Shown: piece by piece, positions 1 through 40,459 of the stretch
How the letters are laid out: the number at the start of each line of letters is the position of its first letter
Position numbering within the stretch: position 1 is the stretch's first letter
Virus record (IMG/VR): IMGVR_UViG_2910822364_000002
Coordinates: 1 to 64,000 of that record
DNA from: a virus
Taxonomy: Duplodnaviria > Caudoviricetes
Direction: 5' to 3' (one strand)
Length of the DNA: 64,000 nucleotides
Program-made: the position numbers and the translations under genes
The notes under the pieces: model-generated
The model's input: only the letters and a program-made list of their open reading frames with translations
The model's database searches: none
What the model was told of the DNA's origin: nothing

Positions 1-1242
1 TTATTTTATTTTCATGATCTCGGCCATTAGCCACTCTGGTTTTCGTTTTGTGTAAGTAGCTTCTGTGATATCGTTGATCTTGTGACCCATCATATATTTT
101 AATGCATATTCATCTACTTTATCTCTTTTTGCCATCGTGGAAAACTGAATCCTTGGATCATGAGCTCTGTGATCTGGATTGAGCTCTAATTTCTTAACAA
201 TCTTTTCGAATCGATGTCTATATTTATCATACGTCATTTTTAAGCTACTTCGGTGTGTTTTTGTATCAGTGCAGTTGATTAAATAATCACTTCCAAGATT
301 TATTGCTTCCTGGTATCGATGCTTGACTAGATCACGAATCCGTGGATGGATTGGAACCAAGCGATCTTTACCTGCGTCAGTCTTCATACCGCCGATAAAA
401 AACCAATTTTCCAGATCTACATTTTTTAATTCAATTAGACCCAATTCTTGTGGTCGCCATCCAGAGTAGCATTGGATCAGAATCACATCCACATAATCAG
501 TATCATACAAATGATCCCATAATTTTTTTATTTCTTCATCCGTAAAATCAATATGGTCCTTCTTCGCTTCTTTAACATCTTTAATAACATCATCAGACAA
601 ATTAAAGGTCCTTGCATAATTCTTGTCTACTAATTCATACTCTAGCGCATAATCCAACATTAAGTTGAATAGAGATTTTATCTTTGTCTTTGTAGTAGGA
701 GATGCGTGTTTTTCTTTACCATCGACTACATACGTTCCATCTTCCATACAACCTTTAATATGTCGGGCACGTAAATCTTTTGCACGCATATCATAAACAG
801 CAGAGCAGTAGTTCCAGGCAGATTTAATTGTACGTTCACTTGAAGGACTTGACAGGGATTCAAAATATTTATCAGTCCACTTTTCGTATAATTGCTCGAC
901 TGTCAGATCAGAGTCAAGATCATACGGATTTTTATGATATTCAAGTAATGCAGCGTAAGCATCATTATAGGTTTTGAAATATGTTTCTGGTTTCAATGAT
1001 TTATAAATAGGTTTTCCATAAAAATTTTTTCCAACACAGACTAATGCACGAAAAGGCTTTCTAAGATTTTGATTTTTTAATTCGGATATAGTGCCAAATC
1101 CATTTGGAAGACGTTTTCGTTTATTAGTTTTTCTTTGTTGTTGTTTAATAACTTTTGTATCTAGAGGATAACCGCAGTGAGGACAAGTTATTGCCTTATC
1201 ACTTACCTGCAATTGACATTCTGGACATTTGATCAGTGCCAT
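1..1242 (-). CDS. int: Tyrosine recombinase (prophage 1 integrase) with N-terminal zinc ribbon
   Basis: Catalytic R (GWRPQE), K (GMKTDAG), HxxR (HDPR), MGH and Y (ATYTK). N-terminal CPEC...CPHC. RBS AGAAAGGAA upstream on the minus strand. Confidence 0.92.
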   Translation of the reverse strand: MALIKCPECQLQVSDKAITCPHCGYPLDTKVIKQQQRKTNKRKRLPNGFGTISELKNQNLRKPFRALVCVGKNFYGKPIYKSLKPETYFKTYNDAYAALLEYHKNPYDLDSDLTVEQLYEKWTDKYFESLSSPSSERTIKSAWNYCSAVYDMRAKDLRARHIKGCMEDGTYVVDGKEKHASPTTKTKIKSLFNLMLDYALEYELVDKNYARTFNLSDDVIKDVKEAKKDHIDFTDEEIKKLWDHLYDTDYVDVILIQCYSGWRPQELGLIELKNVDLENWFFIGGMKTDAGKDRLVPIHPRIRDLVKHRYQEAINLGSDYLINCTDTKTHRSSLKMTYDKYRHRFEKIVKKLELNPDHRAHDPRIQFSTMAKRDKVDEYALKYMMGHKINDITEATYTKRKPEWLMAEIMKIK

Positions 1243-1293
1243 ATATCATCATTCCTTTCTAAAAAAGGGTACAAAAAATACACCCTTATCAAT

Positions 1294-1322
1294 TTGTAAT
1301 TTTGCAGGATGTATGATATAAT
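1294..1322 (+). promoter_or_regulatory. SigA-type promoter, antisense to the int operon
   Basis: TTGTAA-17nt-TATAAT with extended -10 (TGaTATAAT); the layout is conserved at 39310-39338. Confidence 0.75.
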
Positions 1323-1328
1323 TCTGGT

Positions 1329-1408
1329 GTTCAGGCAGAGATTACATCAATCACCCATGATTGATAATTTCTGAAATTCCGTCCAGTTGGTAGCTGGGCG
1401 GTTTTCTT
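1329..1408 (+). ncRNA. Candidate cis-antisense sRNA (about 80 nt, two hairpins)
   Basis: Promoter upstream; stem CAGAGATT/AATTTCTG with inner ATCAATC/GATTGAT; terminator CCGTCCAG-TTGGTAG-CTGGGCGG-TTTT; G-U pairs favour the + strand. Confidence 0.6.
1379..1408 (+). terminator. Intrinsic terminator of the antisense RNA
   Basis: 8-bp GC-rich stem, TTGGTAG loop, T-rich tail. Confidence 0.75.
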
Positions 1409-38231: not shown

Positions 38232-39257
38232 TTATTTCAACAAAAGAATTGTCTCTCTTAATTGTTTTACTGTTTTATGATTATAAACTCTGTTTCCGAT
38301 ATCTTTAGATTTATGTCCCATCAGCATATCAATGCATTTTCTATTACCGCCTGCATTATCCAAAAATGTTTCAAAAGTATGCCTTGCCTCATGAGGCGTT
38401 TTCTTTTTCTTTGTTATATAGGCAATAACAACCTTCCATTCTTCATAAAAATCCCATTTTTTAAACTTGGAACCTTCATCATTTTCTAAAAAATATTCAT
38501 TACTTTTCTCTAACCGTTTTTTTACAAACGGCATGATACGAGGATGAATTGGAACAATTCTGTTTTTTCCAGAATCAGATTTACTTCCACCTTTAAAGTA
38601 TTGTTCTTCTAGGTTTACTTGATCACATGTCATATCTAATAATTCCATTAATCGGAATCCCGTATAAATATAGATTAAAACAATATCAACATTTTTTTGA
38701 TCAGATATTTTCCATAGAGCTTCAACTTCTTTTTCGGTAAATGGTGCGCGTTTTGACTCTTCCTGCTTGGCACTTACAGACGTTAATTGTGAATACATTT
38801 TATCTATGATATCTAATTCAAACGCAAAACTGTCTAAATGTCCCCATAGAACTTTGATATGAGCTTGCGTGGCATAACTGCGTTCACAGTTATCTATAGT
38901 TTCTTGCATTTGATAAGCTTTTATTTGTCTGTATTTCATTCCGTAGAGTTTTTGACAATGTTTATAAGCTGATTTGAGTGAGCTTAAACGAGAGGTTCCA
39001 AGTTTGGGACCTTTTATTTCAAGCCATCTCGTATATAAATCTGCAAGCGTCACTCGGTTACGATCAATGTTCCACGGATTGTCGTTGTACTTGGCCAAAA
39101 TGATGTTTGCTTCTTCACGAGTAGCAGCATAGTCCACTGGGACCTGTCTTCCGTGTCCGTCTTCATCATATGTAGTAACTTTTACAACGTATGGGCGTGA
39201 TCGGTTGCCTTTCAATTTAGTTACACTTCCATATCCGTTTGGATTTCTTCTTGTCAT
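38232..39257 (-). CDS. int: Tyrosine integrase of prophage 2
   Basis: GFR, GSK, HEARH, LMGH, VY catalytic set; N-terminal RRNPNGYGSV arm-binding motif. Confidence 0.93.
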   Translation of the reverse strand: MTRRNPNGYGSVTKLKGNRSRPYVVKVTTYDEDGHGRQVPVDYAATREEANIILAKYNDNPWNIDRNRVTLADLYTRWLEIKGPKLGTSRLSSLKSAYKHCQKLYGMKYRQIKAYQMQETIDNCERSYATQAHIKVLWGHLDSFAFELDIIDKMYSQLTSVSAKQEESKRAPFTEKEVEALWKISDQKNVDIVLIYIYTGFRLMELLDMTCDQVNLEEQYFKGGSKSDSGKNRIVPIHPRIMPFVKKRLEKSNEYFLENDEGSKFKKWDFYEEWKVVIAYITKKKKTPHEARHTFETFLDNAGGNRKCIDMLMGHKSKDIGNRVYNHKTVKQLRETILLLK

Positions 39258-39309
39258 ATACCATCATTCCTTTCCTAAAAAAGGGTACAAAAAATACACC
39301 CTTATCAAA

Positions 39310-39338
39310 TTGTGTTTTTGCAGGATGTATGATATAAT
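39310..39338 (+). promoter_or_regulatory. Antisense promoter (copy 2)
   Basis: TTGTGT-17nt-TATAAT with TGaTATAAT; spacer identical to copy 1. Confidence 0.72.
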
Positions 39339-39344
39339 TCTCTT

Positions 39345-39428
39345 GTCTAGGGAGAAGTAATATCATATGCTGCAAAGTGGTTGATAAACTTCTGAGATTC
39401 CGTCCAGTTGGTAGCTGGGCGGTTTTTT
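39345..39428 (+). ncRNA. Candidate cis-antisense sRNA (copy 2)
   Basis: AGAAGT/ACTTCT + TATCA/TGATA stem, followed by a terminator hairpin identical to copy 1. Confidence 0.6.
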
Positions 39429-39429
39429 G

Positions 39430-40353
39430 TTATTTATAAGCTTTATTTGCTCCGTATTTAGCTTGACTATTGGTAAATCCTTCGTATTCCAATTGTTTTA
39501 TGAGACCAGATTTTGAAAAAGATTGACTTTCTAAATAAGATGTTGCTTTTTTGTAGGCCTGATCTTTCCAATTAGCGTTGCAATTATTTGCAGCATATTT
39601 GGCTTCTTTAGTTGTAAATCCCTCATATTTAAGCTGTTTTATTAATCCGGACTTAGAAAATGCATCATAATCAAGATAGTCGAAAGCTTTATTTAGAGCA
39701 TTTTCTTCTCCCGTTGTAGGCGCGTAAGCCTCTGTAGTTTTTTCTGTAGTTGCTTCAGTTGTAACCTCTGTGGTTGTTGGTTCTTCTGTAGTTGCTTCAG
39801 TTGTATCATAAGCAGATGTGATTTCTATAGATTCAAAGATCTTATCAAACTCCGAAGAATAATCATTTTCGGGCGAGCTCATTGCACAAACTACAAAATA
39901 TCCGCTTTTTACAGGAAATACGAGCATTTCATTTTTATAAGTTTTTCCATCAATAGATTTATTATAATATAACTTCTCTACATCAATACTATTTATTTGT
40001 GCATATTCGCCTTTTAAATCATCTTTATAATCTTGAGATTTTTTAATACTATCCTTTACCTTTTCAACATTTTTAGAATCCAGTACATTACCATTGAATT
40101 TATGATAAACTACACTCAATAATCCATCATTATCTCCGAGCTCATTCTTATAATAAAGGGATGTATCATCTGAGTTGGAATCGGCAGCGATCCATGATTT
40201 TGGAATTTTATATTTTATCCCATATGAACTTTCTGTTTGCTCGAAATCTTTATATGGATCATCAGCTGTATCATCCTTTTTTGATGCACAAGCAATTAAA
40301 AAAATACAAATTAGTGATAATATTATCCCTAATGATATAAATCTTTTTTTCAT
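39430..40353 (-). CDS. ltp: Ltp-family host-surface lipoprotein (superinfection exclusion)
   Basis: Lipobox LIAC; Thr/Glu linker; two repeats A..KA..YL....FSKSGLIKQL.YEGFT. Confidence 0.88.
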   Translation of the reverse strand: MKKRFISLGIILSLICIFLIACASKKDDTADDPYKDFEQTESSYGIKYKIPKSWIAADSNSDDTSLYYKNELGDNDGLLSVVYHKFNGNVLDSKNVEKVKDSIKKSQDYKDDLKGEYAQINSIDVEKLYYNKSIDGKTYKNEMLVFPVKSGYFVVCAMSSPENDYSSEFDKIFESIEITSAYDTTEATTEEPTTTEVTTEATTEKTTEAYAPTTGEENALNKAFDYLDYDAFSKSGLIKQLKYEGFTTKEAKYAANNCNANWKDQAYKKATSYLESQSFSKSGLIKQLEYEGFTNSQAKYGANKAYK

Positions 40354-40393
40354 AAATTTTCCTCCTGATATAAAAATATGTTATAATCAATTT

Positions 40394-40459
40394 GTATAGT
40401 TTACATATTTTATACACTAGAGGTAGCGGTGGCTTATTGCAGTAGGTCATCGCTATTTT
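40394..40459 (+). ncRNA. Candidate antisense sRNA between immA and ltp
   Basis: Extended -10 TGtTATAAT (40379-40387); 13-bp hairpin with 3 G-U pairs, loop TTGCAG, then TTTT. Confidence 0.45.

What the first reader, a model, noticed from the sequence alone, without database searches (positions are those of the whole stretch)
39258..39429. Second integrase carries the same cassette with compensatory stem changes
Seen: although the two integrases differ markedly (413 vs 341 aa), their leaders share the RBS, an AAGGGT/ACCCTT hairpin, the 17-nt promoter spacer, TATAAT and the whole terminator hairpin. The middle stem differs in sequence (CAGAGATT/AATTTCTG vs AGAAGT/ACTTCT; ATCAATC/GATTGAT vs TATCA/TGATA) yet still pairs. 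Inference: selection on RNA structure, i.e. a family-wide regulatory RNA rather than recent duplication.
Basis: partly seen in the sequence, partly recalled or inferred. Interest (0 to 1): 0.7.

Follow-up and report, generated by a model that had tools for sequence, protein, structure and literature searches.

The report
Small antisense RNA cassette guarding integrases
A conserved ~170-bp cassette in front of the integrase genes of gut Anaerostipes phages and conjugative elements encodes an ~80-nt structured RNA on the opposite strand. It most likely keeps integrase production low; expression has not been shown.

Summary
The gaps upstream of the two integrases (1243-1408 and 39258-39429) are 84-87% identical although the flanking genes are unrelated, and the middle stem differs but still pairs.

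The structured RNA lies on the + strand, opposite to int. It has an extended -10 promoter (TGATATAAT), a variable hairpin and an intrinsic terminator, giving about 84 nt. Forty-one distinct variants keep 97% of pairs, and 12 of 23 pairs show double changes. Read on the other strand, pairing falls to 83%.

A covariance model found the RNA in 15 of 20 Anaerostipes species genomes and in a few other Lachnospiraceae. It always sits just upstream of a recombinase, either a tyrosine integrase or a large serine recombinase.

Element 1 of the window is a conjugative element, not a phage.

Three related segments in the int-sense leader can form two exclusive helices, one of which hides the int ribosome site. 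The RNA is antisense to the segment that would keep the site open. I therefore read it as a countertranscript-type OFF switch for int, which is inference only.

No Rfam family matches. The closest precedent is the antisense sRNAs seen upstream of int in Streptococcus pyogenes prophages. No RNA data were available.

The parts
38232..39257 (-). Tyrosine integrase (341 aa) of the prophage. It is the gene the cassette precedes.
   Evidence: ORF. PF00589 at E 3.8e-18.
39255..39276 (-). int translation initiation region ('TIR'): SD AGGAAAGGA, then AUGAUGGUAU, then AUG. It resembles the sRNA promoter sequence read on the other strand.
   Evidence: Sequence. The duplex with the anti-TIR segment is about -13 kcal/mol for the common type, against -7.5 +/- 2.5 for shuffles.
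39277..39303 (-). Small hairpin GGGUGUA-U5-UGUACCC followed by U6, about 20 nt before the int start. It is a weak terminator or leader hairpin of the int-sense transcript.
   Evidence: dG -8.0 kcal/mol. Across 13 sequence variants, 103 of 117 cells pair on the minus strand against 80 of 117 on the plus strand. The U run is missing in some distant copies.
39310..39338 (+). sRNA promoter: TTGTGT, 17 nt, TG-extended TATAAT (-10 at 39333-39338). Segment 'A' (GGATGTATGATATAAT) is 39323-39338. Its antisense is the 'anti-TIR' of the int-sense leader.
   Evidence: Sequence. TGnTAnnnT is kept in every family member, including distant ones.
39345..39428 (+). Predicted ~84-nt sRNA: short 5' tail, hairpin 1 (39353-39393), spacer, terminator hairpin (39400-39422) and T run (39423-39428).
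   Evidence: Fold -31.9 kcal/mol, z -4.15, against -16.2 for the reverse complement. RNAalifold and pair counts. Covariance model R1 scores 87.9 bits. The TSS is predicted only.
39357..39377 (+). Segment 'B' (5' arm and loop of hairpin 1). It is an inverted repeat of the promoter segment A and the bases just upstream of it. Its antisense, rc(B), is a mimic of the TIR in the int-sense leader.
   Evidence: Cognate rc(B):rc(A) duplexes average -16.2 against -13.7 kcal/mol for non-cognate pairs, with 0 of 5000 permutations as low. Examples.
39430..40353 (-). Upstream co-oriented gene (Ltp-type lipoprotein, 307 aa). Its stop codon abuts the sRNA terminator, so its transcript must read through the antisense of the sRNA gene.
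   Evidence: PF07553. A minus-strand ORF ends within 30 nt of the T run in 31 of 52 distinct contexts and within 150 nt in 42 of 52.
1..1242 (-). Tyrosine integrase (413 aa, Zn ribbon) at the end of an integrative conjugative element.
   Evidence: PF00589 and Zn_Ribbon. ICE genes (relaxase, VirD4, VirB4-like, ArdC, Toprim).
1243..1408 (+). First copy of the cassette: hairpin 1265-1287 (int-sense strand), -10 at 1317-1322, sRNA about 1329-1405, hairpin 1 at 1336-1373, terminator 1379-1401.
   Evidence: R1 scores 89.3 bits.

Best explanation
The intergenic cassette is a portable integrase-control module. It has two RNA elements on opposite strands.

**(1) Shown at sequence level.** A TG-extended -10 promoter faces away from int. 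It drives a self-terminated, two-hairpin RNA of about 80-85 nt, and the T tail abuts the stop codon of the co-oriented upstream gene.

**(2) Inferred.** The upstream gene has no terminator of its own. Its transcripts therefore run through the antisense of the sRNA gene, reach a weak hairpin plus U6, and in part continue into int.

**(3) Inferred from covariation and folding.** That int-sense leader holds three related segments:

- rc(B), the antisense of the 5' arm and loop of sRNA hairpin 1;
- rc(A), the antisense of the sRNA promoter;
- the int SD/AUG region (the TIR).

rc(A) can pair either with rc(B), which leaves the ribosome site open, or with the ribosome site, which closes it.

**(4) Inferred.** The sRNA is perfectly complementary to rc(B). 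When it binds the leader, rc(A) is released and closes the int ribosome site. The long duplex would probably also be cut by RNase III. Convergent firing of the strong sRNA promoter would add transcriptional interference.

**Net effect.** Integrase synthesis stays low unless read-through outruns the sRNA.

**My odds.**

- The sRNA gene is real: about 0.85.
- It lowers int expression: about 0.6.
- The specific open/closed helix switch works as described: about 0.4.
For: **sRNA gene**

- The promoter, hairpin and terminator are conserved in about 50 distinct cassettes.
- 98.7% and 97.1% of pair cells are kept, against at most 62% when partners are slid. 22 and 60 cells show double changes, and 0 of 500 shuffles reach the observed values.
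- Read on the minus strand, only 83.2% of cells pair.
- Every variant folds far better on the + strand.

**Link to int**

- Where a left-hand gene could be called, it is a recombinase whose start lies about 50-95 nt from the sRNA model start.
- Of the 10 scanned with Pfam, 5 are tyrosine integrases and 5 are large serine recombinases. Three of the copies had no callable left ORF.
- In the window the carriers are a phage and an ICE.

**Read-through**

- The upstream ORF is co-oriented and ends within 30 nt of the T run in 31 of 52 contexts.

**Int-sense hairpin**

- It pairs better on the minus strand, 103 of 117 cells against 80 of 117.

**Switch**

- Cognate rc(B):rc(A) duplexes average -16.2 against -13.7 kcal/mol for non-cognate pairs, with 0 of 5000 permutations as low.
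- Distant copies have entirely different but complementary distal arms, at -21 to -24 kcal/mol.
- rc(A):TIR averages -10.8 against -10.3 kcal/mol, with 59 of 5000 permutations as low. Parallel changes are seen in L078, L079, L085, L088, L091 and L095.
- The predicted unpaired probability of SD..AUG falls from 0.42 to 0.27 when the sRNA-complementary part is masked, in 42 of 48 leaders.
- The native upstream part opens the site more than shuffled versions do, 0.42 against 0.29, in 43 of 48 leaders.

**Precedent**

- Antisense sRNAs upstream of int have been detected in S. pyogenes prophages (PMC6431027, PMC4829319).
Against: - There is no transcript evidence for either strand.
- The TSSs are predicted only.
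- The strand of the A:B helix cannot be decided from wobble pairs (-16.2 against -16.0 kcal/mol). It could be a DNA-level inverted repeat or operator.
- rc(A):TIR pairing is weak in some variants: -2.7 to -5 kcal/mol in the L042/L047 type and -8 in L084.
- The window's ICE-type copy (the L081 type, equal to copy 1) shows no opening effect, 0.19 against 0.24.
- The variants are related, so the 42 of 48 and 43 of 48 counts are not independent.
- The accessibility shifts are moderate.
- rc(B) looks like a TG-extended -10 promoter on the minus strand in 26 of 39 variants. If int mRNA starts there, it lacks rc(B) and overlaps the sRNA by only about 6 nt.
- The U run after the small hairpin is missing in several distant copies.
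Confidence: 0.55

Rival explanations
1. OOP-like retro-control of the upstream operon. The sRNA's real target would be the 3' UTR of the co-oriented upstream genes (immR-immA-ltp in the phage, cargo genes in the ICE). Duplex formation would trigger RNase III decay of that mRNA, and int would be only a neighbour.
For: - The sRNA is fully complementary to the obligatory 3' UTR of the upstream gene, whose stop is 1-22 nt from the T run in most contexts.
- A similar promoter-hairpin-T-tail unit lies between immA and ltp (40379-40459; -25.2 kcal/mol on the + strand against -7.1 on the minus strand). Such units may therefore cap each gene of the operon.
Against: - The upstream genes vary freely (Ltp, Big_2 and many others), whereas a recombinase start is the constant neighbour at fixed spacing.
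- The RBS and start region of unrelated recombinases is part of the conserved block and co-varies with the promoter segment.
Confidence: 0.15
2. IS10-like face-to-face promoters. The inverted repeat of GGATGnnTGATATAAT would be two convergent promoters whose start sites overlap by about 6 nt. The strong sRNA promoter would occlude a weaker int promoter, and the RNA itself would matter little beyond being terminated.
For: - 26 of 39 distinct variants carry a TG-extended or perfect -10 on the minus strand, 17-20 bp from the + strand -10. Distant copies L078, L080, L084 and L088 are among them.
Against: - The minus-strand -10 is degraded in both window copies (TGATGTAAT and TGATATTAC) and in others, while hairpin pairing is kept.
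- The inverted repeat extends well beyond promoter elements, with covarying distal arms. This fits an RNA helix better.
- Compensatory changes in the base stem of hairpin 1 cannot be explained by a promoter.
Confidence: 0.12
3. A trans-acting sRNA. It would have targets elsewhere in the host or in other mobile elements (for example cross-repression of incoming related elements), and its position next to int would be incidental or serve only co-inheritance.
For: - Many hairpin 1 loops are C-rich (AUCC, ACCC, CACACC), as in Gram-positive sRNAs that pair with SD sequences.
- Several copies can coexist in one genome: up to 4, and two different variants in this window.
Against: - Co-folding the sRNA with the cognate int TIR is no better than with shuffled TIRs.
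- Loop sequences vary between close relatives without any conserved seed.
- Co-resident copies can be almost identical (L073 and L075; L097 and L099), so there is no sign of specificity classes.
Confidence: 0.1
4. Not an RNA gene. The block would be a DNA-level module boundary (a bidirectional terminator plus a recombination hot spot) spread by recent exchange, and the apparent structure would be just two terminators.
For: - The RBS-to-promoter part is almost invariant among A. hadrus elements.
- It behaves as an assembly-graph node joining different integrases in a metagenome (tables 7 and 8).
- The same terminator is reused in another cassette.
Against: - An invariant TG-extended -10 lies at a fixed distance upstream of a non-terminator hairpin that shows compensatory changes.
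- Diverged copies in other species and genera keep the whole architecture with different sequences.
Confidence: 0.06

Closest known systems
Antisense sRNAs upstream of prophage integrase genes in Streptococcus pyogenes (SP119_SR034/071/086/106, Rosinski-Chupin et al. 2019, PMC6431027; Spy_sRNA779816 beside int3, Le Rhun et al. 2016, PMC4829319)
   Same: - The position and orientation match: the intergenic gap just upstream of int, on the opposite strand.
- Those authors also propose silencing of integrase during lysogeny.
- The equivalent gap of S. pyogenes phage 315.3 shows the same build: TGTTAAAAT next to the int RBS, two hairpins, and a terminator abutting the upstream stop.
   Different: - No sequence homology was found. 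Blastn against phage records found nothing, and R1 scores only 13.8 bits on 315.3.
- The host clade differs (Lachnospiraceae).
- Here the cassette also serves serine recombinases and an ICE.
- The three-segment alternative pairing with the int ribosome site has not been described for the streptococcal RNAs.
- Those RNAs were detected experimentally; this one was not.
Countertranscript control of plasmid rep genes (pT181 RNAI/II, pIP501 RNAIII, pAMbeta1). This comparison rests on my own knowledge of the literature.
   Same: - A small, constitutively made, multi-hairpin antisense RNA is encoded inside the leader of the controlled gene.
- A hairpin plus U run lies just 5' of the RBS.
- Antisense binding is proposed to redirect alternative pairing in the leader toward the OFF form.
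   Different: - The controlled gene is a recombinase, not a replication initiator.
- The alternative pairing found here closes the ribosome site (translation). I found no conserved anti-terminator for the small hairpin.
- The leader would be a read-through 3' UTR of an upstream operon.
IS10/Tn10 RNA-OUT and RNA-IN. This comparison rests on my own knowledge.
   Same: - A stable stem-loop antisense RNA from a strong outward promoter controls a recombinase gene of a mobile element.
- Face-to-face promoter geometry is possible in 26 of 39 variants.
   Different: - RNA-OUT covers the transposase start codon. Here the sRNA gene ends about 90 nt from the int start and shows no favourable direct pairing with it.
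Lambda OOP RNA (pO-oop-tO). This comparison rests on my own knowledge. Another agent of this scan named it for a similar cassette (e1-5272747).
   Same: - A short, self-terminated antisense RNA of about 77-85 nt in a temperate phage.
- It converges on the 3' end of a lysogeny-side gene.
   Different: - OOP overlaps the cII coding end. Here the RNA abuts the upstream gene but rarely overlaps it.
- The constant partner here is the downstream integrase.

Membership tests
Any curated Rfam family (release 15) | A match at or above the family's gathering score | tested here: not met
   The whole-window scan finds only a tRNA and GP20-b elsewhere. The permissive scan of 39100-39600 gives only sub-threshold hits: trpB 30.7 against 59 bits, L10_leader 22.6 against 44.
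Prophage int-upstream antisense sRNAs (S. pyogenes type) | Lies in the intergenic region directly upstream of int, on the opposite strand, with its own promoter and terminator | tested here: met
   (terminator 39400-39422 on the + strand). The same layout is seen in phage 315.3.
Prophage int-upstream antisense sRNAs (S. pyogenes type) | A discrete transcript is detected (dRNA-seq or Northern) | not testable with these tools
Prophage int-upstream antisense sRNAs (S. pyogenes type) | Sequence or structure homology to the streptococcal RNAs | tested here: inconclusive
   R1's best hit on the 315.3 locus is the equivalent gap, but at only 13.8 bits, E 0.016. Blastn against phage records found nothing.
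Countertranscript-driven attenuation (pT181/pIP501 type) | A terminator hairpin plus U run immediately 5' of the controlled gene's RBS | tested here: inconclusive
   The hairpin is present (dG -8.0 kcal/mol, U6) and pairs better on the int-sense strand. It is weak, its loop is sequence-conserved, and the U run is absent in L079, L080, L082 and L085.
Countertranscript-driven attenuation (pT181/pIP501 type) | A leader segment inside the antisense target that competes with the terminator (preemptor) | tested here: not met
   No conserved complement to the hairpin arm was found; the ACACC/GGUGU match occurs only in some variants. Alternative pairing was found instead for the ribosome site.
IS10 RNA-OUT/RNA-IN type | The antisense RNA overlaps the 5' end and start codon of the recombinase mRNA | tested here: not met
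   The sRNA start is about 90 nt from the int AUG. Direct co-folding with the TIR is no better than shuffles.
Type I toxin-antitoxin | A conserved small hydrophobic peptide ORF with an RBS opposite or beside the sRNA | tested here: not met
   The two window copies share no ORF: copy 1 reads ATG GGT GAT TGA, and copy 2 has a 52-codon frame without an RBS. A different cassette that reuses the same terminator does carry a 27-aa peptide.

The most novel reading that the evidence does not exclude
The cassette is a self-contained, portable riboregulator that any recombinase gene can be placed behind. A countertranscript flips a three-segment leader between an open and a closed ribosome site.

Int would then be made only when read-through from the element's maintenance operon outruns the sRNA. 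Because the sRNA is diffusible and largely conserved, co-resident phages and ICEs of one cell would cross-repress each other's integrases, giving RNA-based integration and excision cross-talk between element classes.
Probability: 0.22. Interest if true: 0.8.

Novelty: new variant of a known kind. Interest (0 to 1): 0.62.

Why it matters
**Open question.** How temperate phages and conjugative elements of gut commensals keep integrase and excision in check is largely unknown outside model systems.

**What is found here.** A single ~170-bp RNA module is shared by two unrelated recombinase families and by two classes of mobile element in an abundant butyrate producer. This points to a general, transferable control device and not an element-specific regulator.

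**What can be tested.** The module gives a concrete model (sRNA, rc(B), rc(A), ribosome site) that can be tested with compensatory mutations. It also gives the streptococcal int-upstream sRNAs, which were seen in transcriptomes but never explained, a candidate mechanism to test.

**Practical uses.**
- The covariance model marks integrase-proximal ends of mobile elements in Anaerostipes genomes.
- The module could serve as a compact, tunable OFF switch for recombinases in Firmicutes engineering.

Tried and rejected
- **RNA evidence.** No RNA holder was listed for 38700-40000. Laying three RNA runs of the same species label gave no contigs on the stretch. This is not evidence either way.
- **Phage records.** Blastn ('distant') of the cassette against 50,697 phage records found no match.
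- **Rfam.** Nothing reached threshold.
- **Direct pairing of the sRNA with the int ribosome site.** The 5' arm and loop are formally complementary to the TIR, but co-fold ddG (-1 to -5 kcal/mol) was no better than with shuffled TIRs in most of 55 pairs. Rejected as the main mechanism.
- **pT181-type anti-terminator for the small hairpin.** Only a 5-bp ACACC/GGUGU match in some variants, not conserved. Rejected.
- **Type I toxin.** There is no conserved small ORF in the cassette. Rejected.
- **LexA (Cheo) box or other known operator in the TGTTCAGG region between the two -10 elements.** None recognised by eye. Left open.
- **Specificity classes, as in plasmid incompatibility.** Co-resident copies can be nearly identical. 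Not supported.
- **Strand of the A:B helix from wobble pairs.** No preference. Undecided.
- **Wider distribution.** R1 found nothing in 150 sampled Clostridia genomes other than the centre genome, and 5 of 151 in sampled Lachnospiraceae. The strict filters may miss weak copies.

Full report
**1. What is at the coordinates**

The window comes from an 80.8-kb IMG/VR provirus record. Exact-pattern hits in genome contigs place the cassette in Anaerostipes hadrus and its relatives.

Two tyrosine integrases lie on the minus strand: 1..1242 (413 aa, with an N-terminal zinc ribbon) and 38232..39257 (341 aa).

The gaps upstream of them, 1243-1408 and 39258-39429, align at 87% column identity. They are the only two copies in the record, at 84% identity and E 4.8e-48. 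The coding sequences on both sides are unrelated: Ltp lipoprotein against a Big_2 protein, and different int N-termini.

**2. Anatomy and strand**

On the + strand, away from int, the elements run in this order:

- a -35-like TTGTGT or TTGTAA;
- a 17-nt spacer;
- a TG-extended TATAAT (39330-39338);
- a short tail;
- a long hairpin (39353-39393);
- a 10-bp GC-rich hairpin with a T run (39400-39428).

The pattern scan also calls that last hairpin as a + strand terminator.

The predicted ~84-nt RNA folds at -31.9 kcal/mol (z -4.15). Its reverse complement folds at -16.2. Copy 1 gives -30.3 against -19.9. The RNA is therefore a separate small gene, antisense to whatever is transcribed toward int. 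It is not a structure of the int mRNA.

The AAGGGT/ACCCTT hairpin belongs to the other strand. As int-sense RNA it reads GGGUGUA-U5-UGUACCC plus U6, with dG -8.0 kcal/mol.

**3. Family and covariation**

Two exact-pattern scans of IMG/VR returned 36 and 53 loci. These gave 27 distinct sRNA sequences.

On a MAFFT alignment of 23 of them, RNAalifold predicts the two hairpins. The pair counts are:

- 98.7% of 529 pair cells are standard pairs, against 35-54% when partners are slid.
- 22 cells carry double changes.
- 0 of 500 shuffles reach the observed pairing or covariation score.

Eighty-four cells are G-U. Read on the opposite strand, only 83.2% would pair.

A covariance model (R1) found the RNA in these samples:

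| Sample | Genomes with a hit |
|---|---|
| Anaerostipes species genomes | 15 of 20, up to four copies each |
| Sampled Lachnospiraceae | 5 of 151 |
| Sampled Clostridia | 0 of 150 besides the centre genome |

With these added there are 41 distinct sequences. They keep 97.1% of cells paired, and 12 of 23 pairs show double changes, with 0 of 500 shuffles as high. That alignment is model-fitted, so it leans toward the structure.

That is clearly not what is seen.

**4. What it travels with**

In the oriented loci where a left-hand gene could be called, it is a recombinase. Its start lies about 50-95 nt from the sRNA model start.

Of the 10 left-hand genes scanned with Pfam, 5 are tyrosine integrases of several unrelated N-terminal types. 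The other 5 are large serine recombinases (Resolvase + Recombinase + Zn_ribbon_recom).

The gene on the other side varies freely, but it is co-oriented with int. It ends within 30 nt of the sRNA T run in 31 of 52 distinct contexts, and within 150 nt in 42 of 52.

Element 1 of the window carries the following and no phage structural genes:

- a relaxase;
- a VirD4 coupling protein;
- a VirB4-like ATPase;
- ArdC;
- a Toprim primase;
- a SpaA/thioester adhesin.

It is therefore an integrative conjugative element, not a phage.

Element 2 is a prophage with the gene order immR-like, immA-like (M78 peptidase), ltp, int.

**5. A second layer: three related segments in the int-sense leader**

The motif GGATG-nn-TGATATAAT occurs three times:

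- as the sRNA promoter, on the + strand (segment A);
- inverted, inside the 5' arm and loop of sRNA hairpin 1 (segment B);
- on the minus strand, in a looser form, as the int SD-to-AUG region (GGAAUGAUGAUAUAUG).

In an int-sense transcript, the antisense of the promoter, rc(A), can therefore pair with rc(B) or with the int ribosome site (the TIR). It cannot pair with both.

*Evidence for rc(B):rc(A).*

- Cognate duplexes average -16.2 kcal/mol against -13.7 for non-cognate pairs among 41 distinct pairs, with 0 of 5000 permutations as low.
- In distant copies the distal arms have completely different but complementary sequences: L088 -24.2, L095 -21.5 and L079 -21.4 kcal/mol.

*Evidence for rc(A):TIR.*

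- The common type gives -13.0 kcal/mol against -7.5 +/- 2.5 for shuffles.
- Cognate against non-cognate is -10.8 against -10.3, with 59 of 5000 permutations as low.
- Parallel changes of the promoter-upstream bases and the TIR are seen in L078, L079, L085, L088, L091 and L095.

*Folding the whole leader.*

| Leader version | Mean unpaired probability of SD..AUG |
|---|---|
| Free read-through leader | 0.42 |
| sRNA-complementary part masked | 0.27 |
| Leader starting just downstream of rc(B) | 0.26 |
| Shuffled upstream part | 0.29 |

The drop on masking occurs in 42 of 48 leaders. The native upstream part opens the site more than shuffled versions in 43 of 48 leaders.

*Caveats.*

- The sequences are related, so these counts are not independent.
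- The effects are moderate.
- The ICE-type copy (L081, equal to copy 1) does not show the opening effect.
- Wobble pairs do not reveal the strand of the A:B helix.

**6. Proposed mechanism**

*Shown from sequence.* There is a conserved, structured, self-terminated small RNA gene opposite to int. The upstream gene has no terminator before the sRNA gene. An int-sense hairpin pairs better on that strand, 103 of 117 cells against 80 of 117.

*Inferred.* Read-through transcripts carry rc(B), rc(A), the small hairpin and the TIR in that order.

- Without the sRNA, rc(B) holds rc(A) and int can be translated.
- The sRNA, being perfectly antisense to rc(B), releases rc(A), which closes the ribosome site.
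- The roughly 80-bp duplex is also a likely RNase III substrate.
- The convergent strong promoter and the weak terminator would further cut read-through.

This is the logic of plasmid countertranscripts, applied to a recombinase and acting on translation.

*A complication.* rc(B) necessarily looks like a promoter. In 26 of 39 variants it is a TG-extended or perfect -10, lying 17-20 bp from the + strand -10. An IS10-like face-to-face int promoter therefore remains a rival or an added layer.

**7. Comparison with what is known**

No Rfam family matches.

The nearest precedent is positional. Transcriptome studies of S. pyogenes report antisense sRNAs in the gap upstream of prophage integrase genes. 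The authors suggest that these silence int in lysogens (PMC6431027). One such RNA beside int3 was confirmed by Northern blot (PMC4829319).

The equivalent gap of S. pyogenes phage 315.3 has the same build: an extended -10 beside the int RBS, two hairpins, and a terminator abutting the upstream stop. No sequence homology is detectable; R1 scores 13.8 bits.

Three features are new here:

- a defined sequence and structure family in Lachnospiraceae, supported by covariation;
- its use by both tyrosine and serine recombinases, and by both a phage and an ICE;
- the three-segment alternative pairing that links the sRNA to the int ribosome site.

I file it as a new variant of a known kind.

**8. Verdict**

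The function is inferred only. Interest is moderate to high: 0.62.

Noticed in passing
L076:1508-1700, L089:1400-1548, L027:10706-11134 (two tandem copies), L036:1500-1653: The same terminator (CCGTCCAGTTGGTA[A/G]CTGGGCGG) ends a shorter sRNA: TATACT promoter plus hairpin UUGCGAUGUCGCAA. About 94 nt away lies a 27-aa hydrophobic peptide gene with a strong SD (MSTYEEFMIIINVALLIIAILNYTHKK or MTTYEELTLIVNAALLIVAILTYTHKK). The layout looks like a type I toxin-antitoxin. The sRNA's CGCAAUG is complementary to CAUUGCG just 5' of the peptide's SD.
   Followed up: partly
window 40379-40459 (+): A third unit with the same architecture but a different sequence lies between the immA-like stop and the ltp start. 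It has TGTTATAAT, then an 18-bp hairpin with G-U pairs and a T tail. It folds at -25.2 kcal/mol (z -6.3) on the + strand against -7.1 on the minus strand. Counter-transcripts may cap each gene of the lysogeny operon.
   Followed up: partly
window 1-38150: The first 'prophage' is an integrative conjugative element. It carries a C5 methylase, amidoligase, a 1486-aa SpaA/thioester adhesin, SAM synthetase, a DUF3991-Toprim primase, relaxase, ArdC-like protein, VirD4 and a VirB4-like ATPase. It lies directly next to the prophage that starts at 38232.
   Followed up: yes
window 39272-39305, in run X1: In a metagenome assembly the invariant core of the cassette is a graph node. Contigs leading to at least three different integrase N-termini end there (tables 7-8). 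This shows how the conserved block breaks assemblies and joins mosaic elements.
   Followed up: no
window 39400-39422, and the terminators of distant copies (L077, L078, L079): The terminator loop and its closing bases (GUUGGUAGC) are conserved even where the stem sequence has changed by compensatory substitutions. Three copies (L090, L097, L099) replace the whole terminator with an unrelated one. The reason for the loop conservation is unknown.
   Followed up: no
window 39339-39352 and 1323-1335: The 13-14 nt between the + strand -10 and hairpin 1 (TCTnnTGTTcAGG) are conserved even in the most distant copies (L078, L079, L088, L095). No known operator was recognised. This may be an initial-transcribed-sequence constraint or a protein site.
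   Followed up: no
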